This document shows positions 16,588 through 30,462 of a stretch of 32,000 nucleotides of DNA, piece after piece. Numbering within the stretch: position 1 is the stretch's first letter; each line of letters opens with the position of its first letter. Source of the DNA: Salisaeta longa DSM 21114 (GTDB taxonomy: Bacteria > Bacteroidota > Rhodothermia > Rhodothermales > Salinibacteraceae). Under the pieces are notes generated by a model that saw nothing but the letters and a program-made list of their open reading frames with translations, was not told the origin of the DNA and made no database searches. The DNA is taken from contig NZ_ATTH01000002.1 in the NCBI RefSeq assembly GCF_000419585.1, positions 95,873-127,872 of the forward strand, written 5' to 3'. A program made the translations under genes and the position numbers.

Positions 16588-17910
16588 ATGTCGGACGCAT
16601 CGGACGATTCCTTTCCCGCCTCTAAGCTCGACCGTGGAAAGATTTTTGCCAAGACCGGGCTCAAGGTGGGTGCCAACTACGCCAAGTACCTGGCCGACCG
16701 CGTCACCAAGGGCAAAGACGATGGCACGCGCAAGCGTGACCTGAACACCCGCAACGCCCAGGAGCTCTTCCGCGAGTTTACCAAGCTGCGCGGCACGGCC
16801 CTGAAGCTGGCGCAGTCGATGAGCATGGACACGGGGGTGCTGCCGGAGGAGTTCATGGATGTGATGGCGCAGGCGCAGTATCAGGTGCCGCCGATGAACA
16901 AGGCGCTGGTGCAAAAGCGCATCCGCGACGGATTGGGCGCGTACCCGGCGCAGCTGTTTGACGCGTTTGAAGCCGAGGCCCTGGCGGCGGCGTCGATCGG
17001 GCAGGTGCACCGCGCGCGCCTCGACGACGGCACGCCCGTGGTGGTGAAGGTGCAGTACCCCAACGTTCGCGAAACCATTGCCTCGGACCTCGCGATGGCC
17101 CGCTCCATCATCAAGCGGATCGTGAAGAGTCCCAACCTCGACGAGTACATGGACGAGGTGCGCGCCCGGCTGAACGAAGAGACCGACTATCTGAACGAGG
17201 CCGAAAACATCGCCTTCTTTGCCGAGCAATATGCGAGCGATGCGGTCGTCACGCCGCAGCCGGTTCGGGCGTACACCGCCGAAACCGTGCTTACCATGAC
17301 GTACGTGGAGGGGCAGCACCTCGACGCCTTTCTGGCCGACGACCCGCCCCAAGCGCGCCGCGACCACTTTGGACAGCGCCTGTGGGATTTCATCCACGAA
17401 CAGATTGCGAGCGACCACCGCACCATCCACGCCGATGCGCACCCGGGCAACTTCCTCTTTCGCACCGACGGCCGCCTGGGCGTTATCGACTTTGGGTGCG
17501 TGAAGACGTTTCCGCAGGACTTTCGCGACGATATGCTGCGGCTGTGGCGGGCGCGCATTGCGGATGACAGCGCGGCCATCGAGCCGCTGCTCTACCGCCT
17601 CGACATTTTGCACGAAGGCATGGATGCCGCGGCCCGCGCGCGCCTGCGGGACTTCTTTGACCGCTTCGGGTCGTTGATTGTGCGCCCGTACCGCACCGAC
17701 CGCTTCGACTTCGGCGCGCCCACCTTCCACCAAGAGCTGCAGGCCCGCTTTCGGGAAGCCTCGGAGCTCCGCGAAACGACCGGCTCGCCGCACTTCGTGT
17801 TCTTAAACAAGGTGCTGGTGGGCATCTTCAACCTGATGGGCCAGCTGGGGCCGGTCATCGACACGCGACGCAGCCGCACCCTGCTGGAAGGCACCGTCAC
17901 GGCGCTGTAG
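16588..17910 (+). CDS. ABC1/AarF/UbiB-family atypical protein kinase
   Basis: 440-aa ORF. FTKLRGTALKLAQSMSMDTGVLPEEF, AAASIGQVHRARL, VVVKVQYPNV and HADAHPGNFLF are hallmark ABC1-family motifs. Its last ~266 nt are duplicated at 30153-30418. Confidence 0.9.
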   Translation: MSDASDDSFPASKLDRGKIFAKTGLKVGANYAKYLADRVTKGKDDGTRKRDLNTRNAQELFREFTKLRGTALKLAQSMSMDTGVLPEEFMDVMAQAQYQVPPMNKALVQKRIRDGLGAYPAQLFDAFEAEALAAASIGQVHRARLDDGTPVVVKVQYPNVRETIASDLAMARSIIKRIVKSPNLDEYMDEVRARLNEETDYLNEAENIAFFAEQYASDAVVTPQPVRAYTAETVLTMTYVEGQHLDAFLADDPPQARRDHFGQRLWDFIHEQIASDHRTIHADAHPGNFLFRTDGRLGVIDFGCVKTFPQDFRDDMLRLWRARIADDSAAIEPLLYRLDILHEGMDAAARARLRDFFDRFGSLIVRPYRTDRFDFGAPTFHQELQARFREASELRETTGSPHFVFLNKVLVGIFNLMGQLGPVIDTRRSRTLLEGTVTAL

Positions 17911-17954
17911 CAACCGGGCGGGACCGCACTCCTCGATCGGGCGCGTGCGTCTCG
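17645..17954. repeat. Left copy of a 310-bp direct repeat (3' end of the ABC1-kinase gene plus 44 nt downstream)
   Basis: Base-by-base comparison with 30153-30462 at a constant offset of 12,508 nt. The core 17662-17954 has 5 mismatches in 293 nt and no indels. 17645-17661 has 4 mismatches in 17 nt, and similarity stops upstream of 17645. Confidence 0.9.
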
Positions 17955-18248
17955 CTGATCCACAGCGGGCGTCGTCGGATCCCTCGCCAGCATCGGTTCT
18001 AAGGCAGCGAATTTCGCCTCGCCTGCTGCGGCGGGAGTGAAGCGCACACCCCCCGGCATGCCCCAGCGTGCCGCTTACGGGGCACGTACCGTAAACGATG
18101 GGGGCGTAACATTTACAGGCCGTGAATTTGCCGCATCCTCGTCCGCATGGATCGGAAGGGCGTAGCGGTACGAGCCAGGGGCAAGTCCGGCGGGGAGGCG
18201 TGCGCGGAGGGTGTCCGTGGCGTCCGAGAGGACGCGTCATCGGTCGGT

Positions 18249-18293
18249 CGTGCACACCACGATGGACCGTGCACACCACGATGGACCGTGCAC
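18249..18293. repeat. Perfect 19-bp tandem repeat, 2.4 copies (CGTGCACACCACGATGGAC)
   Basis: Units at 18249-18267 and 18268-18286, plus a partial unit at 18287-18293. This gives three GTGCAC palindromes at 19-bp spacing. It abuts or overlaps the stop codon (18293-18295) of the NatB-like permease gene. Confidence 0.85.
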
Positions 18294-19486
18294 TACGTCC
18301 GGAAGATGATGTTTTCCTGCCGGAAGAGATAGGCGCACACGCCCAGCCCCAGCGCGGCCCACACCGCGAGCGAGCCGTAGACGAGCGCCAGCATGCCCAG
18401 GGCGATGTCGCCCGCGATCACGCCTTTGGTGGCAAGCGAGACGTTCAACACCGGGACGAGCGCCGTCACCGCGTCGAGCTCGATGCCCGGCAGCAGGCCG
18501 ATGAAGACCGGGAAGATGACCACGATGGTCAGCGGGTTGATGATGCTCTGCGCTTCCTTGAACGACTTGGCGTAGAAGGAGAGCGAGAGCTGCGCCGCAC
18601 CGAAGAAGAGCGTCAGCGGCACGAGCATCGTGAGCAGCGCCGCCATGACGCCGGGGTCGAGAATGTCGTACGCCGCGTCGAGCAGCGACTGCGGAACGTC
18701 GTCGACGAGCATCGGCGAGATGACGACGCTTCCGATGGCGATCACGGCCGAGGCCACGCCCGTCAGCACGATGGTGCCAAGCTTGCCGAGGAGGATCTGC
18801 GGGCGGCTCGCCGGGGTGGAGAGCAGCGCCTCCAGCGTGCCGCGCTCTTTCTCCCCGGCGCCCAGGTCGATGGCCGGGTACATGCTGCCGAGGAAGCAGA
18901 AGAGAATAAAGACGTAGGGCAGAAAGCCGCCGATGCTACGCGCGATCTTCTCCTGCGCGGTGGCTACGTCCACGTCGCGCACCTGCACGGCCTCGGTGGC
19001 GTCGAGCGAGAGCTGCAGGGTCGAAAACCGCTCCTCTAACAGCTGCCGCTCGTAGCCGTCGAGCACTTGCTGCAGCCGGCGCCGCAGGATGTCGGTGTTG
19101 TCGCCCGACTTGTAGACGAACTCGATGGCGCCCGCGCGCAAGTTCTGCACGGCGTCCTGGAAGGACGGGGCTACGATGAAGGCCGCATCCAGCACCTCGC
19201 GCCGGACGCGCGCCCGCGCCGAGTCCGGCGCCAGCCTGGTGACGACGTCCACCTGGGGCGCCGCCGCAAGCCGCTCGGCCAGCCCGTCGGCCTGCGCGCC
19301 GTGGACGAGCGCCACGCGCAGCGTCCGCTGGGCGGCCTGTTCACTCTGCGACTGCATGATCCACGTCGACGCTACAAACAGTAGCGGAAACAGCACGAGC
19401 GGCACTACCACCATGGCAATGATGGTGCGGCGGTCACGCAGCGTGTCAATCAGCTCTTTCTTGAAGACGGTAAATGCAGCGCGCAT
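18293..19486 (-). CDS. ABC-2 type transporter permease (NatB-like)
   Basis: 397-aa ORF. The N-terminus MRAAFTVFKKELIDTLRDRRTIIAMVVVPLVLFPLLF, a large extracytoplasmic loop, then five more hydrophobic segments including EKERGTLEALLSTPASR, which is typical of NatB/ABC-2 permeases. Confidence 0.85.
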   Translation of the reverse strand: MRAAFTVFKKELIDTLRDRRTIIAMVVVPLVLFPLLFVASTWIMQSQSEQAAQRTLRVALVHGAQADGLAERLAAAPQVDVVTRLAPDSARARVRREVLDAAFIVAPSFQDAVQNLRAGAIEFVYKSGDNTDILRRRLQQVLDGYERQLLEERFSTLQLSLDATEAVQVRDVDVATAQEKIARSIGGFLPYVFILFCFLGSMYPAIDLGAGEKERGTLEALLSTPASRPQILLGKLGTIVLTGVASAVIAIGSVVISPMLVDDVPQSLLDAAYDILDPGVMAALLTMLVPLTLFFGAAQLSLSFYAKSFKEAQSIINPLTIVVIFPVFIGLLPGIELDAVTALVPVLNVSLATKGVIAGDIALGMLALVYGSLAVWAALGLGVCAYLFRQENIIFRT

Positions 19487-19543
19487 GGTAGGTCGGCGGG
19501 TCGAGGGAGGAAGGGGGACGAGCCGGAGCGACGCGGGGAACGA

Positions 19544-20329
19544 TCAGGCCGCTTCCACGCGGCGAATGAACTCGTCTTCGAGGGTGGGCGCTTCCATTTC
19601 ATCGGAAAAGGCGTCGAACGAGCCGGCGTAGAGGAGACGGCCCTCGTGCAAGAGGCCGAGGTCGTCGGCCAGCAGGTTGACCTCGTCCATCCGGTGGGTG
19701 GAGAAGATGACGGTTTTGCCATCGTCGCGGCACTGGCGCACGAGGCGGATGATGCTGCGGGCAGCGATCACGTCGAGCCCGGCGGTGGCCTCGTCGAGCA
19801 CGACCACGTCGGGGTCGTGGATCATCGTGCGGGCGATGCTCACCTTCTGGCGCATGCCCGTCGAGAACTTGCCGATGCGCCGGTCGGCAAAGGCGTGCAT
19901 GTCGAGCAGGTCGAAGAGCGCGTCGCGTCGCCGCTGGAAATCCGTAGAAGAGACGCCGTGCAGGTCGGCGTGGTACTTGACGAGCTCGTGGGCGGTGAGG
20001 CGGTCGTAGAGGCCGGTGCTGCCGGTCAGGAAGCCGAGCTGGCGGCAGACGGCGCGCGGGTGCTCCATCACGTCGCAGCCGCCGACGCGGACGGTGCCTC
20101 GCGTCGGCTTGAGCATGGCGGCAATGATTCGGAGCGCCGTTGTCTTGCCCGCGCCGTTGGGGCCGAGCAGGCAGAAGATGCGGCCCGGTTGGCAGGTGAA
20201 CGAGACGTCGCGCAAGGCGTCGAGGGTGTCGCCCGTGTAGCGGTCGCCCATTTCCTTTTTCTGCTCACGCGAGAGCGTGTACGTCTTGGAGAGCTGTTGC
20301 ACCTCGATCATAAGAGTACCGTTGGACAC
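19544..20329 (-). CDS. ABC transporter ATP-binding protein (NatA-like)
   Basis: 261-aa ORF with Walker A GPNGAGKTT, signature FSTGMRQK and Walker B VVVLDEATAGLD. An alternative ATG at 20311 would start the protein at MIEVQQLSK. Confidence 0.9.
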   Translation of the reverse strand: MSNGTLMIEVQQLSKTYTLSREQKKEMGDRYTGDTLDALRDVSFTCQPGRIFCLLGPNGAGKTTALRIIAAMLKPTRGTVRVGGCDVMEHPRAVCRQLGFLTGSTGLYDRLTAHELVKYHADLHGVSSTDFQRRRDALFDLLDMHAFADRRIGKFSTGMRQKVSIARTMIHDPDVVVLDEATAGLDVIAARSIIRLVRQCRDDGKTVIFSTHRMDEVNLLADDLGLLHEGRLLYAGSFDAFSDEMEAPTLEDEFIRRVEAA

Positions 20330-20482
20330 GTGAGATCGCGGGAGAAGGCTTCAGTCACGGAGGATAAGCACGCCGTCCCCTTTCGGAAACCCCTCTTTAA
20401 TGAACGGTGACATGGTGTGCTGAACGGCAGATTCCGCCAGCGGGGAGCCGGCTGGGCTGCCAGAGACGGTGCTGCCATCCGT

Positions 20483-21619
20483 CTACGACCGTTGGCTAGA
20501 CGTCGCCGCTGCATGGGTTGCGTCTGCAGGTTTGGTGGCAGAGGCATCCGTACCTGTTTGCACGCGGCTGGGATTGCGGGGGACGCGCGCCGTTGCAACC
20601 ACGGTAGCCGGTCCATCCATTCCTAACTCGATCGAAGCCTCGGAGCCAAAGAGCAGGCGGAGGCGCTCGCGTACGTTTTGCAGCCCAATGCCGCCGGAAC
20701 GGTCCGACCCATTGAGTTGCCCGGTGTTAGCAACCCGCAGGTGCAGCGCATCGGCAGCGCAATGAGCGCTCACCCGCACCGTACCGCCGTTGGGCCGGGG
20801 GGCGATGCCGTGTTTGATGGCGTTTTCCACGAGCGTCTGTACGAGCAGGGGCGGAACAGAACGGCTGCACACGGCGGGGGGAACATCAATCCGGTACGCC
20901 AGCCGCTCCTCTAGGCGCACCGATTCGAGTTCGAGATACGTGCGTACAATCTCGATCTCCTTGCGCAGCGGCACCGTAACCGTCTTGCTGCTTTGCAGCG
21001 TGGTACGCAAGAGCCGCGCGAGGCGTGTGATCATCGTCTGCGCTTGCTCCGGATCCTCCGCCACGAGCGCGCGCACGCTGTTGAGGCTGTTAAAGAGAAA
21101 GTGCGGGTTGAGCTGCAGCTTGAGCGCGTCGAGCTTCGCCTCGCGCGATTGAACGGCCATCTCTAGCCGGTCGATTTCGGCCTGCCGGTAGTTCCAGAAA
21201 AAGTGCAGGCCGAAGTAGATCGTGGACCAAACGAGCAAGAGCAGGCCACCTCCGGTGAGGGCCGACACCAACAAGACGGGCTTCTGCAGCGTTGACAAGT
21301 CGCCGGCCCCCTCCGGTAGCCATCCGGCTTCACTCATGCCAATTTGAACCAGGTTCCAGATCACACTGAGGAGTACTGCAGCCAGGAGCATGCGGGGAAT
21401 GAGCGCGCGTAGGGGGAGGCGTGTCCAGTTGTAGGCGCGGAGATACGCGCGGTACGCGTGCGTAAGGCCGACGCCCAAGCCTACTGTTAAAACAAACCCA
21501 GTACCGAGTTCGATCGTGTGCGCCGCATCTTCCAGCAGGGCGTACAGCACGACGCCAAACGCCGCCCATAGGCCCCAGCCGCCAAGCTGGCACACCCAGT
21601 ATGCCTGTTTGCGTGTCAT
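20483..21619 (-). CDS. Sensor histidine kinase, LytS/YehU type (PF06580 His_kinase + HATPase_c) with a membrane-only sensor region
   Basis: 378-aa ORF. The N-terminal ~170 aa are hydrophobic helices with no sizeable extracytoplasmic domain. These are followed by LKLQLNPHFLFNSLNSVRAL (the PF06580 H-region), the N box LVENAIKHG and the G box GGIGLQNVRERL. It starts 29 nt after the stop of the permease::M1 gene. Confidence 0.85.
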   Translation of the reverse strand: MTRKQAYWVCQLGGWGLWAAFGVVLYALLEDAAHTIELGTGFVLTVGLGVGLTHAYRAYLRAYNWTRLPLRALIPRMLLAAVLLSVIWNLVQIGMSEAGWLPEGAGDLSTLQKPVLLVSALTGGGLLLLVWSTIYFGLHFFWNYRQAEIDRLEMAVQSREAKLDALKLQLNPHFLFNSLNSVRALVAEDPEQAQTMITRLARLLRTTLQSSKTVTVPLRKEIEIVRTYLELESVRLEERLAYRIDVPPAVCSRSVPPLLVQTLVENAIKHGIAPRPNGGTVRVSAHCAADALHLRVANTGQLNGSDRSGGIGLQNVRERLRLLFGSEASIELGMDGPATVVATARVPRNPSRVQTGTDASATKPADATHAAATSSQRS

Positions 21620-21648
21620 CAGAATGGGGGGAATGATGCTGCGCGCGG

Positions 21649-24600
21649 TCAGTCGTCCGCCGCCCGCGCGACGGTCGTCACGTTATCGCCCACAGCGCGG
21701 TCGATGAGCTTGGCGTACGGGTCGATGCCCGCGCGGGCAGGCTCGTCGTCCACGGTCACAGTGATCGTCTGCGCGCCGCTCTTAAGACGGTGCTTGCGCA
21801 GGTAAAGCGGCTCGGGCGGCACGTCGCTCGTGTCGGGCGGAAAGACGCCCACGTCGATCCAATCGTTCATGGCAACTTCGGTTTCCGCGCCTAGGCTATC
21901 GGCCCGTACCTTTCGGGCGATTACGTTGAGCGTCACGCGGTAGCGGCCGTTGCCGGTCGGCGTGTAGGTGGCCTTAGTTGTGCGGTTTTCGTAAAGCGTA
22001 ATGGTGCGAAACCAGTCATCGAGAATGTACTGGAGCGAGTCGGGGGTAACGGCCTCCAGCTCCTGCATCAGCTCCCGGGATGTAGGATAAGGCGGCTTGT
22101 TGAACTTCGTTTTGTTGATAAGACGACGCAGGGCCGTGTTCACGCGGTCCTCGCCAATGTAGTCTTGCAAGGCATACATCACGTTCGAGCCCTTCTGGTA
22201 GTGGATGTATTCCTGGCCAGCTACGCGCACAAGCGGCCGTTCGCCGCGCGATGCCGTCCGGCGCCCTTTCAGGTACCGATCGAGTTCGTATTTCAGAAAG
22301 CGGCGCATCTGGTGCGCGCCGTAGCGCTTCTTCATCACCATGAGCGCGCTGTACTGCGAGAGGGTCTCGGAGAGCATCGCGGCGCCCGCCACGTTTGCAG
22401 GCGCCACTTGGTGGCCCCACCACTGGTGCGCCACCTCGTGCGCCGTCACGTAAAACGGGAAGTCGATGTCGCTTTCCTCGTCGAAGCGCATGATGAAGCC
22501 CATTGACTCGGAGAACGGGATGGTGCCCAGAAACGACTGGGCGAAGGCGCCGTGGTACAGCGGAAACTCGGCAATGCGTAGGTGGCGGTTCTGGTACGGG
22601 CCGAAGTGGGTGGTGTAGTAATCGAGCGCCGTGCGCGCCCCGGCTACGAGGCGGTCGAGGTTGAAGGTGTGGGTTGGGTGGTGGTAGACGGTGATGTCAA
22701 CCGGTGCCTGCCCGGAGGCCGTATCGGGCGGCGTCCACCGGGCAGCGACGGTGTCGTACCGCGCAGAGAGCACTGTGTAGAAGTGGAGCATGGGCGCGCG
22801 GGTCGTAAAGCGCGCGTAGCGCCGTCCGTCAGAAAGCCATGTCGTGTCGCGGTGCCCGGGTGCCAGCGCAACCTGATCGGCAGCGGTGCTCACCGTCGCA
22901 GTGAAGTCGATCCAATCGGCATAACGGCTGAAGGCGTTTGTGCGCTGCGCCAGCGAATCATTCCTGGGCGGCAGAGGTGGCTTCGGCGGCAGTCCATAGT
23001 CCTCGCGCTCGCTGGGCGTGGAGAGCTCGCGCCTCGGTTGATAACCAATCTGCGGGAGCACGTTGTTACGCAGAAACGTGCCGTTGGCCACGAGCGCATC
23101 CACGTCTCCGGCGAATCCACGGGTGCGGATTGCCTGGCGCAGGGACAGCTGGAGCGTATCGTTGGGTGGCAGCGGTGCGTCCAGCACGTACGTGCGAAAG
23201 CCCAATGCCTTATCGTTTAGTGCGATTGTAGCCGGCTGGCTAAACGTGAGCTGCTCGACGTGCACGTCGTCTTGCGGGGGCAACTGCACATGCACCGAGT
23301 CGATGGCGCGGGGCGTCTTGTTGACAAGCGTGTACGAGCCGGCGATGGTTGCATCGCGCCGGCTCGGAAAGAGGTCGATGGCCACGTTTACCGCTGTCAC
23401 GCGCGGCTGTGGGGTATCTTCGAGCAGGCCGTACGTCCGCTCGTAGCGGGCACGCAGCGCCTTCTGCTCGTCGTTGGTACGGTAGGTGTGCAGCACGTTT
23501 ACATTGTAGAAGATGACAGCCCCGGTGCAGAGCATGAGCGTGCTCGCGCCGCCGAGGCGCAGCGCCATCGGGCGCGTGAGGCGGCGTTTGGCCTGCTCCC
23601 AGCGCGCACGGAGCGTGGTTTCGTTACCGCGTACCCACAGCAGGCGGGCGATGAGCGCCAGCACGAGGGCCACTGCGCTCCAGTGCAGGGCCGTCCACGC
23701 AAAGCGCGTGAGGTAATGGCCGTACCCGTTCAGGTCGGAGTACGGGATGCTGATCCCGCCGCCGAAGACGTAGAGCGGATGCTCCAGCCCCAACTGCGGG
23801 AGGAAGGCCAGGCTGAGGTAGTAGAGGATGATGAGGAGGTGGCCAACATACTTATGATTGACGACTGTATGCACGACAAGCGCCAGCGCACAGAAGAGCG
23901 CGTTCGATAGCAACCCGATGCCGAACAGCTCGCTCACGTACAGCCCCAGCTCAAACTGCGTGTAGCCCTTCACCAGTTGCGTTCCAATGCCTACAGCCAT
24001 AATAACGGCCTGGAGCACTACCACCATCCCAACCAGTGCTGCAAATTTCGACACGAGCGCAAGGCTGCTCGGCACGGGCAACGTGTCGGTAAGCGGTTGC
24101 ACCTTTAAGTCGCGCTCGCGCCAGACGAGCCGCCCGGCGTAGAACGCGATGAGCACTACCATAATTATGCCGAAGCCGGCGCTCAGCTCGTTTGCTACGA
24201 TGCGTGTTACGGGCTGAACGGTTGTGCCGTACTGCTGCCCAATCTCGTTTGCCCCGATGATAAGGAAAACCATACCGCCCGCCAAAATAGCGTAAAAGTA
24301 CACGTCGCGTACAATCTCAGAGAAAGCGCGCCGTGTGAGCGCTACAAGCTGCTGGAGACGCGCCCGGCTGTTATAGAGCAGCTGCACCGACGGGAGGTCG
24401 AGCTGCGAAATGAGCGTGCTAACGCGCCCTGCCGTCAGCGGATCTGCTTCCTCATCCGCTGTTGTGGTATCGGCCGATCCACCGCCCGCGAGGTGGGCAA
24501 CGCGAAACCGTGCAATGACCCCGGCAACGATCGTTCCGCTTATGCCAATCCACAGCAGCCGGTTAGCCAAGAGCAAGCCCGTGAGCGGCACGAGCCGTGT

Positions 24601-25308
24601 GTTCTGTTCCGTGGTCGTCCAGTAGCGTGTTACCTGATCCACCGTGATGAGGCCAAACGGATCCAGCAGCGCCGCGATCGTGCTATTCTCGATCGGGTTG
24701 CCGGCGATGAGCGTCGCTGCGATGCTGTGGCCGACGAGGAGCAGGATCCCTCCGATGTAATTGGGCAGCATCTTGCGTGTCGTCGCGGCCAGGGCAAAGA
24801 AGAGGGCCCCGGTAAACAGCAGATTGGGTATGACAAACAGCAGGTACGGCTGCAGGTAGGCACTGAGCCGGAAGGCGCCGAACTCGCTGGCGTCGAGCCA
24901 GGGCGTCACCTCGCCCGCCATCAGGCCCAGCGCAAAGCTCGCAAAGATGTAGAGGTTCACGGCCAAGGCTCCCACAAAGCGCCCGCCCAGAAGATCAAGC
25001 TTGCGCACGGGCGTGGTAAACATGAGCGGATGAATCCCGCTGGCGTAGTCACGATAAATGGTTTGCCCCATAAAGGCCGCCGTGATAATAAGGCCCAAGA
25101 AACTAAAGAGGGTCGTGTATAACATGACGGCATAAGGCGAATTAGCCGCCACAATAGGGCTAAGGCCCCCGATGCCGCCGTCTCCAAAAGCCCCACCCTC
25201 GACGTTGACGAGCAGGAAGCTGAGGGCAAAGAAGAGCAGAAAGTACACGTGGGTAGAGAGCGCCCGGAACCGGAACCGGACTTCGTGTGATGCAATACGC
25301 CAGAACAT
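21649..25308 (-). CDS. ABC-2 permease fused to an M1-family (aminopeptidase N-like) zinc metallopeptidase domain
   Basis: 1219-aa ORF. The N-terminal ~600 aa are polytopic membrane protein. The C-terminal half contains HEVAHQWWGH (HEVAH at 22426-22440, His957), a downstream Glu in MLSETL, and GAFAQ at the position of the GxMEN exopeptidase motif, 37 aa before the first His. Confidence 0.85.
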   Translation of the reverse strand: MFWRIASHEVRFRFRALSTHVYFLLFFALSFLLVNVEGGAFGDGGIGGLSPIVAANSPYAVMLYTTLFSFLGLIITAAFMGQTIYRDYASGIHPLMFTTPVRKLDLLGGRFVGALAVNLYIFASFALGLMAGEVTPWLDASEFGAFRLSAYLQPYLLFVIPNLLFTGALFFALAATTRKMLPNYIGGILLLVGHSIAATLIAGNPIENSTIAALLDPFGLITVDQVTRYWTTTEQNTRLVPLTGLLLANRLLWIGISGTIVAGVIARFRVAHLAGGGSADTTTADEEADPLTAGRVSTLISQLDLPSVQLLYNSRARLQQLVALTRRAFSEIVRDVYFYAILAGGMVFLIIGANEIGQQYGTTVQPVTRIVANELSAGFGIIMVVLIAFYAGRLVWRERDLKVQPLTDTLPVPSSLALVSKFAALVGMVVVLQAVIMAVGIGTQLVKGYTQFELGLYVSELFGIGLLSNALFCALALVVHTVVNHKYVGHLLIILYYLSLAFLPQLGLEHPLYVFGGGISIPYSDLNGYGHYLTRFAWTALHWSAVALVLALIARLLWVRGNETTLRARWEQAKRRLTRPMALRLGGASTLMLCTGAVIFYNVNVLHTYRTNDEQKALRARYERTYGLLEDTPQPRVTAVNVAIDLFPSRRDATIAGSYTLVNKTPRAIDSVHVQLPPQDDVHVEQLTFSQPATIALNDKALGFRTYVLDAPLPPNDTLQLSLRQAIRTRGFAGDVDALVANGTFLRNNVLPQIGYQPRRELSTPSEREDYGLPPKPPLPPRNDSLAQRTNAFSRYADWIDFTATVSTAADQVALAPGHRDTTWLSDGRRYARFTTRAPMLHFYTVLSARYDTVAARWTPPDTASGQAPVDITVYHHPTHTFNLDRLVAGARTALDYYTTHFGPYQNRHLRIAEFPLYHGAFAQSFLGTIPFSESMGFIMRFDEESDIDFPFYVTAHEVAHQWWGHQVAPANVAGAAMLSETLSQYSALMVMKKRYGAHQMRRFLKYELDRYLKGRRTASRGERPLVRVAGQEYIHYQKGSNVMYALQDYIGEDRVNTALRRLINKTKFNKPPYPTSRELMQELEAVTPDSLQYILDDWFRTITLYENRTTKATYTPTGNGRYRVTLNVIARKVRADSLGAETEVAMNDWIDVGVFPPDTSDVPPEPLYLRKHRLKSGAQTITVTVDDEPARAGIDPYAKLIDRAVGDNVTTVARAADD

Positions 25309-25442
25309 GACAGGAAAGAACGAACAGTGAGAGGGTAACGGCTGGGGATGGTTGGACGTGTCGGCGCACTAAAGCGCACCAGCGGGGTCGGTAGCGGCTC
25401 CGGGCCGGCCGTCGCTGGCGCTGGATGCGCGCCCACGTTCCT

Positions 25443-26348
25443 TCAGGCCTTCAGGGCGGTGGCGGACACCAGGTCTTGCATTCGTACGAAGTAAACGTCT
25501 TCAAGTGTGGGGCGCGCTGGCTTAAACCCATCGCCAGGATCCTGCTCGGCATAGACGCGAATGACGGGTCGCCCGGCCACGAGCCGCACCGAGATGACAT
25601 CGTGGCGCGCTTCGTACATCGGCAGGGTCACCCTTGTCACGGTGTGGCTCCAGATACGCCCTTCGAGGGCTCGAATGGCGCTCGCAGGGCTGCCCTCGAA
25701 TACGATGGAGCCTTTGCGAATCATGGCCATGTTAGAGCAGAGCTCGCGCACGTCCTTCACGATGTGCGTCGAGAGGATGACAATGCGGTTCTCGCCGAGC
25801 TCGCTCAGTAGATTCAGAAACCGTGTCCGCTCGGAAGGGTCGAGGCCAGCGGTGGGCTCGTCTACAATGATGAGCTGGGGGTCGCCCAGGAGCGCCACCG
25901 CAATGCCAAAGCGCTGTTTCATGCCGCCCGAATAGCTGTCGAGCGTTTGCGTTCGTGCATCCTGGAGGTTTGTGCGGTCAAACAGCGTATCTACAGTCGC
26001 GGCGCGCTCGCTCGCATCTGTAATACCTTTCATCACCGCAAAGTGATCGAGGAGATGGTCGGCACGGGCCTTTGGGTACAGCCCAAATTCCTGCGGCAGG
26101 TAGCCCAGGCGACGGCGCACGCGACGTTTCTCTGTAAGTACGTTGATCGTCGCGTCGTCGGTGTTGAGCTCAACGGTGCCGTCGTCGGGCTCTTGCAGCG
26201 TGGCAATCGTTCGCATGAGCGTCGACTTACCAGCACCGTTGGGGCCCAGTAGGCCGTAAAGACCCGTGGAGACCGATAGCGTGACCTCCTTGAGGGCCTG
26301 TGTACCGTTTGGATAGGTCTTCGAGACGTTTTCAATGCGAAGCTGCAT
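25443..26348 (-). CDS. ABC transporter ATP-binding protein (partner of the permease::M1 fusion)
   Basis: 301-aa ORF with Walker A GPNGAGKST, signature YSGGMKQR and Walker B LIIVDEPTAGLD. It has a C-terminal ~90-aa accessory domain. Confidence 0.9.
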   Translation of the reverse strand: MQLRIENVSKTYPNGTQALKEVTLSVSTGLYGLLGPNGAGKSTLMRTIATLQEPDDGTVELNTDDATINVLTEKRRVRRRLGYLPQEFGLYPKARADHLLDHFAVMKGITDASERAATVDTLFDRTNLQDARTQTLDSYSGGMKQRFGIAVALLGDPQLIIVDEPTAGLDPSERTRFLNLLSELGENRIVILSTHIVKDVRELCSNMAMIRKGSIVFEGSPASAIRALEGRIWSHTVTRVTLPMYEARHDVISVRLVAGRPVIRVYAEQDPGDGFKPARPTLEDVYFVRMQDLVSATALKA

Positions 26349-26392
26349 GGGAGTGCGGGGTTGTAAGGTAAGGGCAAGGGGCGCGTATGAGC

Positions 26393-26440
26393 GTACAGTA
26401 TGCAGCGCTTAAATAAAGCATCTACCAAGTAGAGTATGCA
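26393..26440. promoter_or_regulatory. Pair of 12-bp direct repeats GTA(C/G)AGTATGCA (26393-26404 and 26429-26440) upstream of the ABC ATPase gene
   Basis: 11 of 12 positions identical, with 36 bp start-to-start. They lie 45-92 nt upstream of the ATG at 26348, in a 363-bp spacer. A chance occurrence cannot be excluded. Confidence 0.25.
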
Positions 26441-26711
26441 CTGCAGGACGTAACCTGTAGTCCCTTTTGATAGGCGGGAAAGGGGCGCGACGAGCGGCAA
26501 GAACGGAAGATAGACAGCGAAGAAGCGGTGCTGCCTTCTGGCCGGCTCGTAAGTGCGCAGACAAGAAACAGGCGCAAAGGGCAGCGGAAGCAGGAGGGGG
26601 GCGCCGGTACCGGATGGGACAAGGAAGGTGCCGGCAGGTGCGCGGCGCAGCGAGTGGCGCAGCCGAGCGTTTCATTGTGTCGTGACCTGTAAGAAAAAGT
26701 GTTCACAGTAA

Positions 26712-27941
26712 CTACACAGAACGGTGCGCCTTCGTGCAACGAGCGCTGGAGGGGCGACAGAGTGCATTCAGCCATTGGGTTGCGGCTGCGGCCAGGCCGC
26801 GCACAGGGTCTCCGGCGAGTGCTTCGCGCGCCCGGCTTATCGTATCTGCTGTAGGCTCGCCCGTCGCCCACTGGACAGCGACTTGGGCTCGCAGGCGGAG
26901 GCTCTCGTCGTCGAAGGGGGTCCTGCCGGTGCCCACAGCGCGCCAGCGCGCCGCGGCGCCCGCATCTTGGCGCACGGCGCCCTCAAAGAACGCCGCCTCC
27001 AGGGCTAGTGACGGGAGCAAGGCCGGCGGGTACAACGCGTGGCGGTCTAAGGCTTCTTGCAATAGCCGATGGGCGCGCGTCATATCGCCGGTATCCAGTG
27101 CGTGCAGGTACGCCAGCCGCCGGCCTTCTACGTCGTAGGGCGTTTCATCGTCTACGGCCGTGGCCTGGTCGACAAGCGCGGGCTCCCAGGTGCACGGCCG
27201 CTTTTCAAACAGTAGCGCCGTGAGGGCAAAGACGGCCGCATCGCGGGCGGCCGCCGGATGGTTGCGCCAGATGCGCAGCAAGCGCGACCCGTCCGTGAAG
27301 AAGCCGCTCGTCGTTACGGGTACGAGCGTAACAACGCCTATACTGAGCGAGACTGTACCAAAGATAAGCGTTCCATCGGCTGCCATCCACCCGATGGGCA
27401 ATGTGCCCGACGGTACCGCGTCGTACAGGCCCAGTGCGATGTACGCGCCAATGGCTAGCAGCCCCAGCAACAGGCTCGCAGCAGGCCCGCCGGCCACCAT
27501 GCGTGCTTCGCCGCGGGCTAGATCTTGCAGGTCGGTGGGCACGCTGCCCGCCATTCCCCCATAGAGAGACCAGTGCGTGTGCAGTTCAACCTGGTACCCG
27601 GTATTCGTGCGTGTGACCATGAACGGTCCTACGGCGAGGAGTTGAAACCGAAAGCCACTCAGCCATCCGCCCAGCAAATGCCCGGCCTCGTGAACGGCCA
27701 GTGCAAGAAATATGATGACAGCCGTCCCCACAAGCGCGATCGCTCCGCCTAACACATCCAACGTGCCGGCAGGTACAGCGCTCGCCCCTCCGTCGTCGCC
27801 GATGAGCAGAACGTACGCGGCGTATCCAACTGCGCCACTCGCAAGCACAATAGCAGCTGTTTTAAGGAAGTCAATGGTAGCAGCATTATCCGGGGCGAGG
27901 CCCGCGGGCATCCGTAGCGGAGGCACGTCGGAGGCGTCCAT
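26712..27941 (-). CDS. M50-like (site-2-protease-type) membrane zinc metalloprotease with a C-terminal helical-repeat domain
   Basis: 409-aa ORF. HEAGH lies inside a transmembrane segment (FLALAVHEAGHLLGGWL), and a second membrane-embedded motif LVPVTTSGFFTDGSRLL resembles the M50 NxxPxxxxDG segment. The ~170-aa soluble C-terminal domain is alpha-helical and repeat-like. Confidence 0.65.
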   Translation of the reverse strand: MDASDVPPLRMPAGLAPDNAATIDFLKTAAIVLASGAVGYAAYVLLIGDDGGASAVPAGTLDVLGGAIALVGTAVIIFLALAVHEAGHLLGGWLSGFRFQLLAVGPFMVTRTNTGYQVELHTHWSLYGGMAGSVPTDLQDLARGEARMVAGGPAASLLLGLLAIGAYIALGLYDAVPSGTLPIGWMAADGTLIFGTVSLSIGVVTLVPVTTSGFFTDGSRLLRIWRNHPAAARDAAVFALTALLFEKRPCTWEPALVDQATAVDDETPYDVEGRRLAYLHALDTGDMTRAHRLLQEALDRHALYPPALLPSLALEAAFFEGAVRQDAGAAARWRAVGTGRTPFDDESLRLRAQVAVQWATGEPTADTISRAREALAGDPVRGLAAAATQWLNALCRPSSARCTKAHRSV

Positions 27942-28001
27942 GGCAGTTAGGCACGTGGTGAAAGGTGCGTACGGTGCGGCGTGAATTCCGTAAAAACGAC
28001 G

Positions 28002-28877
28002 TTAGCGCTGATGTATGGTGTAGCCTCGGGCTTCTAGCAGCGCAATGAGGCCCTTGCGCCCCACCATATGGCCGGCCCCCACCACAATCATAGGACGTGT
28101 GCTGCCTGCAAGTAGTGCCTCAATTTGGGGCACCCACCGCTGGTTGCGTTCTACCAGAAGGCGCCGGTACAGCGCCGGAAATTCTCGCATCATCTCGCCC
28201 TCAAGAAGGGCCCGCAGCCGTGTGGTATCGCCCCGTGCCCATGCACGCGTCATCTCGTCCATCTGCTGTATGGTGCGCCCCGAACGCGCTAACGTGTAGC
28301 GCAGAAAGTCCTCCTGCTGTGACGACGAGAGCCCATCAAAAATACGCAACTGCTCGCGGAGCGTCTCTAGGGAGCGGATGGGTTTTCCGGCAGTCTTGGC
28401 CTTACGGAAAAAGTGAGCATCGATGCCAGAACCGGGCGTGTAGCCAGCGCGCTGGTAAAGTAGTATGGGCACCGACATAGAAACCACCCACGGCTCCATG
28501 CGCTGCAACCGTTTAAGAGGTAAGTTAAGGCTGTCGGTGGTCGTTTTGAGCAGACGGTAGGCATCGCTTGAAAGCGTGCGTTGCAGCGTTTGATTGTCGC
28601 TGTACATGCCCATCTCGGCAATGAGCGCGGGGGCTTGTGTGCGGGCGCTGTCCAGGCGGGTTTCGAAGACCAGCACATCAGACGCAGCGAAGACGCTGTC
28701 GAAGGCCGGAGCCAGTGGGTACGCTTCGGGCTTTAGAAGATGAACCGACCCTACAAGGTATCCCTCGGTGCCTGCATCCGAACGGATGTCCCACAGCATA
28801 TGGCGGTCTTGTGCATGGGCAATCATCGGGAGCAACCCCAAGATGGCTATACATACAGCGGTCCAAAAGCGCTGCAT
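28002..28877 (-). CDS. TraB/GumN-family protein, secreted
   Basis: Track ORF 28002..28922 trimmed to the ATG at 28877 (signal peptide MQRFWTAVCIAILGLLPMIAHAQ). The family pattern is MLWDIRS..GTEGYLVGSVHLL... and the C-terminal IVVGAGHMVGRKGLIALLEARGYTI. Confidence 0.8.
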   Translation of the reverse strand: MQRFWTAVCIAILGLLPMIAHAQDRHMLWDIRSDAGTEGYLVGSVHLLKPEAYPLAPAFDSVFAASDVLVFETRLDSARTQAPALIAEMGMYSDNQTLQRTLSSDAYRLLKTTTDSLNLPLKRLQRMEPWVVSMSVPILLYQRAGYTPGSGIDAHFFRKAKTAGKPIRSLETLREQLRIFDGLSSSQQEDFLRYTLARSGRTIQQMDEMTRAWARGDTTRLRALLEGEMMREFPALYRRLLVERNQRWVPQIEALLAGSTRPMIVVGAGHMVGRKGLIALLEARGYTIHQR

Positions 28878-28965
28878 AGGGAAGCGTCTGCTCCGGAAAC
28901 CTACAAGTAATCGTGTGTGCATGGTAGTTCAAAGTTGTTAGAAGCTGCATTTGCAAAACCACTGC

Positions 28966-29001
28966 CTTTATAAAGCGACGCTACTCCGTTGTAAAGCGCA
29001 G
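28966..29001. promoter_or_regulatory. Direct repeat TT(A/G)TAAAGCG with 21-bp periodicity (28968-28977 and 28989-28998); candidate LytTR-type binding architecture upstream of the TraB/GumN gene
   Basis: 9 of 10 positions identical, with start-to-start spacing of exactly 21 bp. It sits in the AT-rich spacer between the regulator stop (29070) and the TraB/GumN start (28877). It overlaps a perfect palindrome CTTTATAAAG (28966-28975). The repeats are short, so chance is possible. Confidence 0.25.
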
Positions 29002-29069
29002 TATTGGTCAGTGGCTGCATCCTTTGATGAGTGGCGCTGGCCCTCTCCGTTTCGGGCAGCGGCTGGCGT

Positions 29070-29810
29070 TTACAGCTTCAAGTGCTCACGGAATTGCTTC
29101 GAGCGCCGACGCGAAAGTTCGATCTCGCTCCCGTCCTTCAGCTTTGCAAGAATCTTATCGCCAAACCAGGGGACAACGTCCTCTACCCAGTGCAGGTTAA
29201 TGATGTGCTGACGGCTTGCGCGGAAAAAGCAGTTGGGATCGAGGCGTTCTTCGAGATAACGCAGCGAGCGGTGTACAAGCGGCTTGCCCTTGCTGGAGAC
29301 GATGCGCGTGTAATTTCCTTCCGATGCGAAGTAGCGTACATCGGCCAGTTGCACAAAGTAGTAGCGTTTGCCATCCTTCACAAACACTTGGTCATCGGTG
29401 GAAAGGGTGGGCACGGGCTCCGCTTCCGCCACTGCCCCCTGCGGTTGAGTCGCCTTGGCTTGCTCGCGCACGCGCTGCACAGCCTCCGCTAATCGCTCGG
29501 GTTCAATGGGCTTGACAAGGTAGTCTAGCGCACTCACTTCAAACGCCTCAAGGGCGTAGGCATCGTACGCGGTCGAAAACACGACAAACGGCACGGCATC
29601 TAGACGCTCCAGCAGATCGAAGCCGCTGCCACCAGGCATCTGAACATCGAGAAAAAGGAGATCGGGCTGCAGGTCGTTGACGGCGGCCTCGGCCTCATCG
29701 GCATTTGTGGCTTCTCCAACGATTTCGAGATCCTCGTGGGCGGCCAGCAGGCGTCGCATTTCGCTGCGTGCCAGGCGCTCGTCATCGACGATAAGTGTTC
29801 GTAGCGTCAT
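29070..29810 (-). CDS. LytTR/LytR-AlgR-family response regulator
   Basis: Track ORF 29070..30146 trimmed to the ATG at 29810. MTLRTLIVDDERLARSEMRRLL...DLLFLDVQMPGGSG...LDYLVKP is a receiver domain. The C-terminal FVKDGKRYYFVQLADVRYFASEGNYTRIV...FFRASRQHIINL is a LytTR DNA-binding domain. 246 aa. Confidence 0.9.
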   Translation of the reverse strand: MTLRTLIVDDERLARSEMRRLLAAHEDLEIVGEATNADEAEAAVNDLQPDLLFLDVQMPGGSGFDLLERLDAVPFVVFSTAYDAYALEAFEVSALDYLVKPIEPERLAEAVQRVREQAKATQPQGAVAEAEPVPTLSTDDQVFVKDGKRYYFVQLADVRYFASEGNYTRIVSSKGKPLVHRSLRYLEERLDPNCFFRASRQHIINLHWVEDVVPWFGDKILAKLKDGSEIELSRRRSKQFREHLKL

Positions 29811-30152
29811 GATATGTACGACTATTAGTAGATTTTGGGCGTCAGGGAACGGTTTTGCAGGCCGTACGCTCGCCAACGATAGGCGCAAGAACGTATGCCC
29901 TCGGGCTGCTCCGCTCCCATGCGACGGGATAGGCGATTGGGAGACAAACAGCGCAAGGGTGCCGATACAACAAAATACTTCCATACAATGAAGATACGAA
30001 ACGCACTGGCCCTGTGAAAGCAATTTCTGATCGCCGGTAGCTTGCGCTGATGAGCGGGGGAGGCAACGTGCTGTAGCATTCGGGGACGGCTTGCCCGGCA
30101 GTTTGCGAACGGACGCATGTTGCATCTGCACGGGTGGCCGGTGCAAGTAAAT

Positions 30153-30418
30153 TGCGGGAGTTCCTTGCGCGCTTCGGGTCGCTGATTGTGCGCCCGTACC
30201 GCACCGACCGCTTCGACTTCGGCGCGCCCACCTTCCACCAAGAACTGCAGGCCCGCTTTCGGGAGGCCTCGGAGCTTCGCGAAACGACCGGCTCGCCGCA
30301 CTTCGTGTTCTTAAACAAGGTGCTGGTGGGCATCTTCAACCTGATGGGCCAGCTGGGGCCGGTCATCGACACGCGACGCAGCCGCGCCCTGCTGGAAGGC
30401 ACCGTCACGGCGCTGTAG
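30153..30418 (+). pseudogene. Orphan 3' fragment of an ABC1-kinase gene (displaced or duplicated copy)
   Basis: It reads ...KLREFLARFGSLIVRPYRTDRFDFGAPTFHQELQARFREASELRETTGSPHFVFLNKVLVGIFNLMGQLGPVIDTRRSRALLEGTVTAL, which is identical to the C-terminus of the 16588..17910 product from FGSL onward except for Thr/Ala. It has no kinase domain upstream. The track ORF 30134..30418 only has a GTG start. Confidence 0.85.
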
Positions 30419-30462
30419 CAACCGGGCGGGACCGCACTCCTCGATCGGGCGCGTGCGTCTCG
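30153..30462. repeat. Right copy of the 310-bp direct repeat
   Basis: See the left copy. The offset is 12,508 nt and identity ends at 30462 (left copy 17954). Confidence 0.9.

What the first reader, a model, noticed from the sequence alone, without database searches (positions are those of the whole stretch)
17645..30462. 12.2-kb insertion bracketed by a duplicated 3' end of the ABC1-kinase gene (offset exactly 12,508 bp), with no integrase
The stretches 17662-17954 and 30170-30462 align base-for-base at a constant offset of 12,508 nt. They differ at only 5 positions (17674 T/C, 17736 G/A, 17757 A/G, 17769 C/T, 17878 A/G). A further 17 nt upstream (17645-17661 vs 30153-30169) align at the same offset with 4 mismatches, and similarity then stops. 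The left copy is the true 3' end of the intact 440-aa ORF (stop at 17908-17910) plus 44 nt. The right copy is an orphan fragment. Four of the five core substitutions are synonymous (Leu, Glu, Glu, Leu), and only one changes the protein (Thr/Ala). That pattern is expected if the two copies diverged as parts of functional orthologues in different lineages, rather than by decay of a local duplication. This is the classic footprint of an element that inserts into the 3' end of a gene and supplies a replacement end. It would also fit homology-anchored acquisition of foreign DNA. However, no integrase, transposase or transfer gene lies between the repeats. The 293-bp near-identical repeats would also allow precise loss of the cargo by homologous recombination.
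Basis: partly seen in the sequence, partly recalled or inferred. Interest (0 to 1): 0.8.

Follow-up and report, generated by a model that had tools for sequence, protein, structure and literature searches.

The report
Operon bracketed by duplicated gene end
In Salisaeta longa, an eight-gene transporter and regulator operon sits between two near-identical copies of the last 0.3 kb of a kinase gene, which looks like ordinary homologous or illegitimate recombination rather than a new kind of mobile element.

Summary
Positions 17662-17954 and 30170-30462 match at a constant offset of 12,508 nt, with exactly the five transitions listed. A 100%-identical contig from an independent assembly confirms both inner junctions.

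Two details change the picture:
- Homology does not stop at 17954/30462. After a net 115-nt extra segment in the right copy, another ~103 nt align at only 67%.
- The left edge (16/21 matches) breaks a conserved FFD motif in the orphan copy.

So a 98% core sits between much more diverged edges.

The DNA between the repeats is one co-directional operon: LytTR regulator, TraB/GumN, M50-like protein, two ABC ATPases, an ABC-2/M1-peptidase fusion, a LytS-type kinase and an ABC-2 permease. It has its own 342-nt leader. It holds no integrase, transposase, tRNA or detectable remnant of these.

The central genes of the operon have relatives that are 70-77% identical in protein and about 75% in DNA, much like the kinase gene itself (72-76% DNA). 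I found no sign of distant foreign origin.

Best reading: a RecA-type single crossover, or a related unequal exchange, duplicated the shared segment. Gene conversion later homogenised the core.

No close relative exists in any searched collection, so the empty-site test could not be run. This is an ordinary example of a known kind and of modest interest.

The parts
16588..17910 (+). Intact ABC1/UbiB-family atypical kinase gene (440 aa). Its last 249 coding nt form part of the left repeat.
   Evidence: Pfam PF03109, E = 5e-60. Full-length orthologues at up to 80% identity in Salinibacter-like MAGs.
17641..17661 (+). Left-copy side of the diverged 5' edge (16/21 identical to 30149-30169).
   Evidence: Here the left copy keeps the conserved L-R-D-F-F-D residues seen in all orthologues.
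17662..17954 (+). Left core repeat. It is 293 nt long and 288/293 identical to the right core.
17960..18062 (+). Left tail: diverged continuation of the duplicated unit (67% identical to 30583-30688).
18293..19486 (-). ABC-2 family permease, the last gene of the operon. It is convergent with ABC1.
   Evidence: PF12698 and PF12679. Partial match to NF041647 over the permease part.
19544..20311 (-). ABC transporter ATP-binding protein (ATPase 1).
   Evidence: PF00005. Gene call in L018.
20483..21619 (-). LytS-type sensor histidine kinase.
   Evidence: PF06580, E = 5e-27.
21649..25308 (-). ABC-2 permease / M1 aminopeptidase fusion protein (1219 aa).
   Evidence: PF01433 and PF12730. 100% identical to a protein named for Salisaeta longa (P0241).
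25443..26348 (-). ABC transporter ATP-binding protein (ATPase 2).
   Evidence: PF00005.
26712..27941 (-). M50-like membrane protein.
   Evidence: PF02163, E = 5e-7.
28002..28877 (-). TraB/PrgY/GumN family protein. It is not a DNA-transfer gene.
   Evidence: PF01963, E = 9e-74. P0121 is 100% identical and named for Salisaeta longa.
29070..29810 (-). LytTR-family response regulator, the first gene of the operon. Its true start is ATG 29810.
   Evidence: PF00072 and PF04397. BtsR/LytR-like in NCBIfam. Start.
29811..30148 (-). Non-coding leader upstream of the regulator gene. It ends at the junction with the orphan copy.
   Evidence: One promoter-like consensus match at 30018-29991 (not evidence of function).
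30149..30169 (+). Orphan-copy side of the diverged 5' edge. It is either microhomology or a decayed edge, and it marks the novel junction.
   Evidence: 16/21 matches. The orphan reads L-R-E-F-L-A and so breaks the conserved FFD motif. Matches of this quality occur 85 times between ABC1 and the 12-kb cargo.
30170..30462 (+). Right (orphan) core repeat: the last 249 coding nt of ABC1, the stop codon and 44 nt.
   Evidence: The junction with the leader is confirmed by independent contig L018.
30463..30582 (+). Segment present only in the right copy (net 115 nt). It separates the core from the tail.
   Evidence: No Rfam family and no exceptional fold.
30583..30688 (+). Right tail, homologous to 17960-18062 at 67%.
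30876..31979 (-). RTX-repeat protein gene, the right-hand neighbour. It is convergent with the orphan copy.
   Evidence: PF00353, E = 5e-35.

Best explanation
The structure was made by general recombination, not by a site-specific recombinase.

**Proposed steps**
1. A 12.5-kb unit existed as a circle or as a sister/allelic copy. It ran from the middle of the ABC1-kinase gene (about codon 352), through that gene's end and downstream spacer, across the whole eight-gene LytTR-regulated ABC-transporter/peptidase operon, to the leader of its first gene.
2. One end of that unit had been joined to mid-ABC1 sequence by an illegitimate join at imperfect microhomology (30149-30169).
3. A RecA-type single crossover within the shared ABC1 3' end then placed the unit in the chromosome. 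This is Campbell-type integration or, equivalently, unequal exchange.
4. Such a crossover duplicates exactly the shared segment. It leaves one complete gene on the left and a truncated orphan end at the far side of the operon.
5. Afterwards the two copies exchanged sequence by gene conversion. This kept the uninterrupted 293-nt core at 98% identity. The extreme edges, and the tail cut off by the 115-nt indel, drifted to about 67-76%.
6. The core can still recombine and precisely delete the operon while leaving an intact ABC1 gene.

**Shown:** the anatomy, the heterogeneous identity, the absence of a recombinase and the single-operon content.
**Inferred:** the circular or allelic intermediate, the order of events, gene conversion and excision.
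For: **Anatomy**
- Direct repeats correspond to a gene 3' end. One copy completes the gene and the other is truncated in mid-gene.

**Experimental precedent**
- In E. coli, a single crossover between a circular molecule carrying part of the lacZ end and the chromosome gave duplications of 109-950 bp of the homologous locus. True homology-facilitated illegitimate recombination was predicted to give deletions instead (PMC3240628).

**No recombinase**
- No integrase, transposase, tRNA or terminal inverted repeats were found.
- No remnants were found in any intergenic gap.

**Content between the repeats**
- It is exactly one co-directional gene array plus its 342-nt leader.
- A related four-gene module (kinase, LytTR regulator, ATPase, ABC-2/M1 fusion) occurs as a unit on Hymenobacter plasmid pHsw1.

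**Junction**
- The junction edge has 16/21 matches but violates the conserved FFD motif, as expected for microhomology or a decayed edge.
- Partial matches of this quality are plentiful enough for a microhomology-guided join: 85 between ABC1 and the cargo.

**Identity profile**
- Identity runs 76% edge / 98% core / 67% tail beyond an indel. This is the pattern expected from conversion limited to contiguous homology.

**Independent assembly**
- A separate assembly confirms the inner junctions and the allele-specific edges.
- The window is from a cultured isolate species, Salisaeta longa. The five SNPs therefore mark two loci rather than a mixture of strains.
Against: - No relative is close enough to show an empty site, a donor arrangement (ABC1 followed by this operon) or a circular form.
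- Twelve ABC1 loci from relatives share only the TetR-ABC1 pair with the window. The polarity of the event cannot be set: operon inserted, or gene end copied to a new place.
- Gene conversion is inferred from the identity profile alone.
- The sharp contrast could instead reflect an allelic donor whose ABC1 end had been homogenised earlier. Differences are 0 in the 44 nt after the stop codon, against 33% in the tail.
- A circle of 12.5 kb without replication genes has no evident source.
Confidence: 0.45

Rival explanations
1. Local duplication within one genome. Either a tandem duplication of the 12.5-kb unit occurred, followed by deletion of most of the second copy. Or a ~0.5-kb piece (the ABC1 end plus downstream spacer) was copied to a site 12 kb away. 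In both cases the operon was already resident and nothing was 'inserted'. Later gene conversion kept the core similar.
For: - The two copies are each other's closest relatives by a wide margin: 98% against at most 76%.
- The central cargo genes are as diverged from relatives as ABC1 is, which suggests long residence in the lineage.
- The two operon genes next to ABC1 have native-like GC3 of 0.89-0.91.
- The tail homology at 67% points to an old event.
- The junction microhomology fits an illegitimate duplication join.
Against: - This needs two events (duplication plus deletion), or an unusual dispersed copying of a short segment.
- It also relies on gene conversion to explain 98% against 67%.
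- The right part of the operon has lower GC3 (0.65-0.78) than the flanks (0.81-0.86). That does not fit a uniformly native block.
Confidence: 0.3
2. Degenerate integrative island. A site-specific (tyrosine or serine) recombinase once inserted the element into the 3' end of ABC1 and supplied a replacement end, as phage 21 and e14 do at icd. The recombinase gene was later deleted.
For: - Direct repeats derive from a gene 3' end, with gene integrity preserved.
- Four of five substitutions are synonymous.
- GC falls to 0.56-0.60 at the right end of the cargo.
Against: - No recombinase gene or fragment is present; the largest non-coding gaps are only about 340-460 nt and gave no hits.
- No other mobility, replication or phage genes are present. 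The content is a single operon.
- 293 nt at 98% identity, with diverged homology on both sides, is not the short identical core within diverged arms that is typical of att sites.
- The central cargo genes are lineage-typical.
Confidence: 0.1
3. Homology-facilitated illegitimate recombination of linear DNA taken up from a relative. The ABC1 end acted as a one-sided anchor, and the far end joined at microhomology upstream of the crossover, so the anchor was duplicated.
For: - One-sided homology together with a 16/21 microhomology junction.
- The mechanism is documented in several bacteria and has been proposed for orphan arrays at T6SS and Rhs loci (PMC5361080).
Against: - In the experimental system read here, this mechanism was predicted to yield deletions. 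The duplications that were found were attributed to single crossovers of circular molecules (PMC3240628).
- Natural competence is not known for this organism (my own knowledge; not tested).
Confidence: 0.08
4. Assembly or phasing error. The real molecules would be a chromosome with ABC1 followed by the RTX side, plus a separate 12,508-bp circle carrying the orphan end and the operon. Alternatively, the two forms coexist as a mixture.
For: The independent k=31 contigs stop inside the repeat and cannot link the inner and outer flanks. The graph is therefore equally compatible with a circle plus an empty site.
Against: - The SNPs lie 30 and 76 nt from the repeat ends, and the longest identical run is 108 nt. 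That is within reach of ordinary paired reads.
- The putative circle has no replication or partition gene.
- The deposited contig is 150,924 nt long.
Confidence: 0.05

Closest known systems
Campbell-type single-crossover integration of a circular DNA that carries a fragment of a chromosomal gene (as with suicide plasmids; E. coli lacZ-end duplications of 109-950 bp in PMC3240628)
   Same: - The insert is flanked by direct repeats equal to the shared fragment.
- One repeat completes the gene and the other is truncated at the fragment's end.
- No dedicated recombinase is needed.
- The event is reversible by recombination between the repeats.
   Different: - This is a natural case, and no vector, replication gene or selectable marker is visible.
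- The circular intermediate is hypothetical.
- The repeats show a heterogeneous identity profile (76% / 98% / 67%), which implies age or an allelic donor.
Integrative elements that insert into the 3' end of a protein gene and supply a replacement end (phage 21 and e14 at icd of E. coli; recalled from my own knowledge, not read here)
   Same: - A duplicated gene 3' end brackets the inserted DNA.
- The gene stays intact.
- The differences between the copies are mostly synonymous.
   Different: - No integrase or excisionase is present, and no phage or transfer genes.
- The cargo is a single housekeeping-type operon.
- The identical stretch is far longer than an att core.
Orphan 3' ends and immunity-gene arrays at Rhs and T6SS effector loci, attributed to homology-facilitated illegitimate recombination (PMC5361080)
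   Same: - A conserved upstream sequence acts as a homology anchor.
- Older downstream sequence is displaced and kept as an orphan.
- No integrase is involved.
   Different: - Here the anchor itself is duplicated rather than the downstream module being displaced.
- This is a single event, not an array.
- The genes are not toxin/immunity pairs.
Four-gene module of LytS-type kinase, LytTR regulator, ABC ATPase and ABC-2/M1-aminopeptidase fusion, as on Hymenobacter swuensis plasmid pHsw1
   Same: The same four protein families lie next to each other. ATPase 2 is 55% identical and the fusion protein 35% identical.
   Different: - In the window the kinase and regulator lie at opposite sides of the module.
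- TraB/GumN, an M50-like protein and a second ABC-2 pair have been added.
- The location is chromosomal.

Membership tests
Integrase-mediated genomic island or prophage inserted in a gene 3' end | A site-specific recombinase gene inside the element, usually next to one att site | tested here: not met
   Pfam on all eight genes and on the flanking genes found no integrase, resolvase or transposase. Six-frame translations of the gaps gave no hit at E <= 1.
Integrase-mediated genomic island or prophage inserted in a gene 3' end | Direct repeats (attL/attR) derived from the target gene end, with the gene kept intact | tested here: met
   17662-17954 vs 30170-30462, 288/293 identical. The ABC1 ORF is intact.
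Integrase-mediated genomic island or prophage inserted in a gene 3' end | An empty site in close relatives | not testable with these tools
   The best ABC1 relatives are only 80% identical and share no downstream synteny. Two metagenome scans found nothing.
Campbell-type single-crossover integration product | The insert is flanked by direct repeats of the homologous fragment. One copy is complete and the other is truncated at the fragment's boundary. | tested here: met
   The orphan copy starts abruptly at about 30149, within codons 352-358 of the 440-codon gene. The left copy is continuous with the gene.
Campbell-type single-crossover integration product | Repeats long and similar enough for RecA-dependent exchange | tested here: met
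   Perfect runs of 108, 76 and 61 nt lie within a 293-nt core.
Campbell-type single-crossover integration product | Existence of a circular intermediate or donor carrying the gene fragment next to the cargo | not testable with these tools
   No reads and no close relatives are available. The Logan contigs cannot distinguish a circle from the integrated form.
Homology-facilitated illegitimate recombination | A one-sided homologous anchor plus a microhomology join at the other end | tested here: inconclusive
   The junction has a 16/21 match that violates conserved residues. This fits microhomology, but a decayed edge would look the same.
Homology-facilitated illegitimate recombination | Recipient DNA between the anchor and the join is deleted, not duplicated | tested here: not met
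   The anchor is duplicated here. In PMC3240628, duplications were assigned to single crossovers of circles instead.
Transposon or insertion sequence with target-site duplication | A transposase, terminal inverted repeats and a short (2-14 bp) target duplication | tested here: not met
   There is no transposase. No inverted repeat pairs the two ends. The duplication is about 300-420 nt long.
Repeats undergoing concerted evolution (gene conversion) | Identity is highest in the contiguous interior, drops at the edges and falls beyond an indel | tested here: met
   76% (16/21) at the left edge, 98.3% in the core and 67% in the tail after the 115-nt indel. This is consistent with conversion but is not proof of it.

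The most novel reading that the evidence does not exclude
The operon could be a recombinase-free, 'homology-addressed' mobile cassette. It would carry a 0.3-kb copy of the end of a conserved housekeeping gene as an address tag. RecA would loop it out as a 12.5-kb circle. After transfer, it could re-enter any relative's chromosome at the same gene without damaging it. If so, the duplicated gene end would be a maintained functional part rather than a scar.
Probability: 0.08. Interest if true: 0.6.

Novelty: new member of a known kind. Interest (0 to 1): 0.25.

Why it matters
- It is a clean natural example of how a whole operon can become bracketed by a duplicated gene end without any integrase.
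- Repeat-flanked 'islands' of this kind should not automatically be read as degenerate integrative elements.
- A synonymous-biased handful of differences between such repeats does not prove that they evolved in separate lineages.
- Practically, the 293-nt repeats predict that Salisaeta longa cultures lose this transporter and regulator operon precisely, at a measurable rate.
- Beyond that, the finding is ordinary.

Tried and rejected
**Empty-site search**
- An exact look-up of the ABC1 protein found nothing.
- Protein homologues reach only 80% identity.
- A genome-collection scan gave 10 loci at 60-80% identity, with synteny limited to TetR-ABC1.
- Two further contexts gave the same result.
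- A degenerate and an exact DNA pattern in metagenome contigs both returned nothing. The degenerate pattern does match loci already in hand, so the metagenome collection simply lacks the relevant samples.

**Plasmid or phage origin of the cargo**
- Megablast of the 13-kb region against plasmids gave only a 46-nt chance hit.
- A protein search found the ABC-2/M1 fusion on plasmids at no more than 42% identity.

**Structured RNA or mobile-element nature of the 115-nt extra segment**
- No Rfam hit was found.
- Folding z-scores were -1.8 and -0.8.

**Other checks**
- No integrase remnants were found in the intergenic DNA.
- I tried to use relatives' ABC1 downstream DNA to decide which tail is ancestral. 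No alignment scored above shuffles.
- TraB/GumN neighbours in relatives are unrelated, so TraB is not a conserved part of the module.
- Rejected: an IS or transposon origin, because there is no transposase and no terminal inverted repeats.
- Rejected: a strain-mixture assembly chimera, because the species is a cultured isolate and two independent assemblies agree on the allele-specific edges.


Full report

Yes. The repeat finder reports a single long direct repeat, 17645-17944 / 30153-30452, spaced 12,508 nt apart at 97% identity. Every other repeat family in the window is 44 nt or shorter and 90% or less identical. An ungapped local alignment gives 305/318 identities for 17645-17962 vs 30153-30470.

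Four are synonymous (Leu363, Glu383, Glu390, Leu394) and one changes Thr431 to Ala.

The left copy is the end of an intact 440-aa ABC1/UbiB-type kinase gene (PF03109, E = 5e-60) plus 44 non-coding nt. The right copy begins in mid-gene, and nothing upstream of about 30149 resembles ABC1.

**2.

- *Homology continues past 17954/30462.* The right copy has a net 115 nt of extra sequence (30463-30582). Beyond it, 17960-18062 aligns with 30583-30688 at 67% (69/103). The alignment score is 30, against 10.0 +/- 1.6 for shuffles. With the 18/19 seed excluded it is 18 against 9.4 +/- 1.5. None of 500 shuffles reached either score. The 15-mer seed occurs only at these two places in the window.
- *The 5' edge extends to 17641/30149 with 16/21 matches.* In those codons the left copy keeps the L-R-D-F-F-D residues found in every orthologue. 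The orphan copy reads L-R-E-F-L-A and breaks the invariant FFD motif.
- *The identity profile is therefore uneven:* 76% at the edge, 98.3% in the core, an indel, then 67% in the tail.
- *The response-regulator gene starts at ATG 29810,* where its receiver domain begins, and not at 30146. Positions 29811-30148 are a non-coding leader that abuts the orphan copy.

**3. Source organism and reliability of the assembly**

Two cargo proteins are 100% identical to proteins named for Salisaeta longa, a cultured halophile of the Rhodothermales (P0121; P0241).

An independent Logan assembly of run SRR3938206 contains a 12,288-nt contig identical to window 17925-30212. A second contig ends at window 17704.

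These ends are exactly where a k=31 graph must break. They lie 30 nt past the first distinguishing SNP on each incoming path and 30 nt into the shared end on the outgoing path.

Both inner junctions, and the allele-specific edges (T at 17674, C at 30182), are thus confirmed independently.

These contigs cannot link the inner and outer flanks, so a 12,508-bp circle plus an empty site is formally compatible with the graph. I consider it unlikely. The element has no replication gene. The SNPs also lie within reach of ordinary paired reads, since the longest identical run is 108 nt.

**4. What lies between the repeats**

Eight genes lie there, all on the minus strand, forming one array with its own leader:

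| Order | Gene | Coordinates |
|---|---|---|
| 1 | LytTR response regulator | 29810-29070 |
| 2 | TraB/PrgY/GumN protein | 28877-28002 |
| 3 | M50-like protein | 27941-26712 |
| 4 | ABC ATPase | 26348-25443 |
| 5 | ABC-2 permease / M1-aminopeptidase fusion (1219 aa) | 25308-21649 |
| 6 | LytS-type histidine kinase | 21619-20483 |
| 7 | ABC ATPase | 20311-19544 |
| 8 | ABC-2 permease | 19486-18293 |

Nothing in the window is an integrase, transposase, relaxase or tRNA. Despite its name, TraB/GumN belongs to a pheromone-shutdown/TIKI-like family and not to DNA-transfer machinery (my own knowledge of PF01963). Stop-free six-frame segments from the five gaps examined gave no Pfam hit even at E <= 1. 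No inverted repeat pairs the two ends.

**5. Is the cargo foreign?**

I found no sign of distant foreign origin.
- The centre of the operon (M50-like, ATPase 2, ABC-2/M1 fusion, kinase) is syntenic in a 226-kb metagenome contig (L019). Protein identities are 56%, 75%, 75-78% and 70%, and DNA identity is 75% over 5.8 kb.
- ATPase 2 and the fusion protein recur at 77-79% identity in L020.
- ABC1 itself is 80% identical in protein, and 72-76% in DNA, to its best relatives. The cargo centre is therefore about as diverged as the neighbouring core gene, which argues for long residence in this lineage.
- Composition is mixed. The two genes next to ABC1 have GC3 of 0.89-0.91, like the flanks at 0.81-0.86. 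The genes from the kinase to the regulator have GC3 of 0.65-0.78.
- A kinase / LytTR regulator / ATPase / ABC-2-M1 module sits as a unit on a Hymenobacter plasmid, so the module type can travel. No plasmid or phage carries anything close to this copy.

**6. Can the empty site be tested?**

No. The ABC1 protein is not in the contig index. The nearest homologues are 80% identical.

In twelve ABC1 loci from relatives, only the TetR-ABC1 pair is shared with the window. Neither the operon nor the RTX gene follows ABC1 in any of them. Two metagenome scans returned nothing. Downstream non-coding DNA of relatives cannot be aligned with either tail.

**7. Mechanism**

The anatomy has three features. 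One complete gene end sits on the left. One end truncated at a fixed boundary sits on the right. The DNA between them runs from that boundary back to the gene end. This is the product of a single homologous crossover between the chromosome and a molecule carrying [mid-ABC1 ... gene end ... operon ... leader] joined head to tail. That molecule would be a circle in Campbell integration, or a sister/allelic copy in unequal exchange or tandem duplication.

An E. coli study observed exactly this outcome. Circular molecules carrying part of the lacZ end integrated by single crossover and duplicated 109-950 bp. True homology-facilitated illegitimate recombination was expected to delete recipient DNA instead (PMC3240628).

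The novel join at 30149-30169 shows 16/21 similarity to ABC1 yet destroys conserved residues. Matches of that quality are common enough to guide an illegitimate join: 85 between the non-duplicated part of ABC1 and the cargo. They are far too rare (about 7e-6 per position pair) to appear at a random junction.

I attribute the uneven identity to gene conversion. Exchange is confined to contiguous homology, so the interior is homogenised. The extreme edges, and the tail isolated by the 115-nt indel, drift apart.

The alternative is an allelic donor whose ABC1 end happened to be 98% identical while its spacer was 33% diverged. I cannot exclude this.

**8. The synonymous-substitution argument**

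Four of five synonymous gives P = 0.06 if only transitions are considered and 0.02 for all changes.

Polarising with six orthologues gives a mixed result. The intact gene carries the derived state at 17674 (TTG, where all outgroups have CTN) and at 17878 (Thr, where four of the six, including the closest relatives, have Ala). The orphan carries the derived state at 17736.

A constrained gene and a neutral orphan that exchange sequence would give the same picture. The pattern therefore does not require two functional orthologues in separate lineages.

The two copies are also each other's nearest relatives by a wide margin (98% against at most 76%).

**9. Rivals**

- A purely local origin (tandem duplication plus deletion, or ectopic copying of about 0.5 kb) is the main rival, at 0.3. 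It differs from the preferred model mainly in whether the operon arrived or was already there.
- A degenerate integrase-driven island (0.1) lacks any trace of its defining gene.
- Homology-facilitated illegitimate recombination of linear DNA (0.08) predicts deletion rather than duplication.
- A phasing error or free circle (0.05) is addressed in section 3.

**10. Comparison with known systems, and novelty**

The structure works like a Campbell-type integration product. It resembles phage 21/e14 at icd only in outline: there is a duplicated gene end, but the recombinase test fails.

It shares the homology-anchor logic proposed for the orphan arrays at Rhs and T6SS loci (PMC5361080).

I class it as a new member of a known kind: a recombination-generated partial gene duplication bracketing an operon.

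Its value is mainly cautionary and practical. It predicts precise, RecA-dependent loss of the operon. The most novel reading still open is a recombinase-free cassette that uses the gene end as a maintained address tag, and I give it about 8%.

Noticed in passing
window 18249-18293: A perfect 19-nt tandem repeat (CGTGCACACCACGATGGAC, 2.4 copies) lies immediately downstream of the stop codon of the ABC-2 permease gene, in the convergent spacer with ABC1. Its function is unknown.
   Followed up: no
window 18293-29810 (minus strand): The operon combines a LytTR/LytS two-component pair with two ABC-2 transporters. One transporter is fused to an M1 aminopeptidase, and the other has a permease resembling the permease half of ABC/CPBP-protease fusions. 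An M50-like protein and a TraB/PrgY/GumN protein are also present. The mix suggests peptide signal processing or export, or protection against antimicrobial peptides. No precursor peptide gene was looked for systematically.
   Followed up: partly
L017 3679-10429 (Hymenobacter swuensis plasmid pHsw1); L019 6713-14512: The ABC ATPase plus ABC-2/M1-aminopeptidase fusion recurs with a LytS-type kinase, and often a LytTR regulator, across Bacteroidota and Gemmatimonadota. Some copies are on large plasmids. This looks like a widespread and apparently uncharacterised regulated exporter-peptidase module.
   Followed up: partly
window 30134-30418 (+): The orphan ABC1 end remains an open 94-codon frame with a GTG start and the native stop codon. 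It gave no family hit on its own. I did not test whether it is expressed.
   Followed up: no
window 9511-11434 (-) and 2636-6641 (-): A umuD/umuC-type pair (S24 peptidase plus Y-family polymerase) and a DabA/DabB-type inorganic-carbon pump pair lie in the left flank. Beyond TetR-ABC1, synteny with relatives is also lost on this side: relatives have DnaJ and EI24 genes there instead. The whole neighbourhood is therefore rearranged between genera.
   Followed up: no
window 6346-9093 (+) vs 6505-7995 (-): The long plus-strand ORF (915 aa, no Pfam hit, GC3 0.65) is probably spurious. An independent gene call places an isocitrate dehydrogenase gene on the opposite strand at 6505-7995.
   Followed up: partly
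Metagenome-contig collection: A degenerate pattern that matches L011 (JGI sample 3300012002) found nothing in the metagenome scan. That collection therefore does not contain every JGI sample represented in the protein database. Negative scans there are weak evidence of absence.
   Followed up: yes
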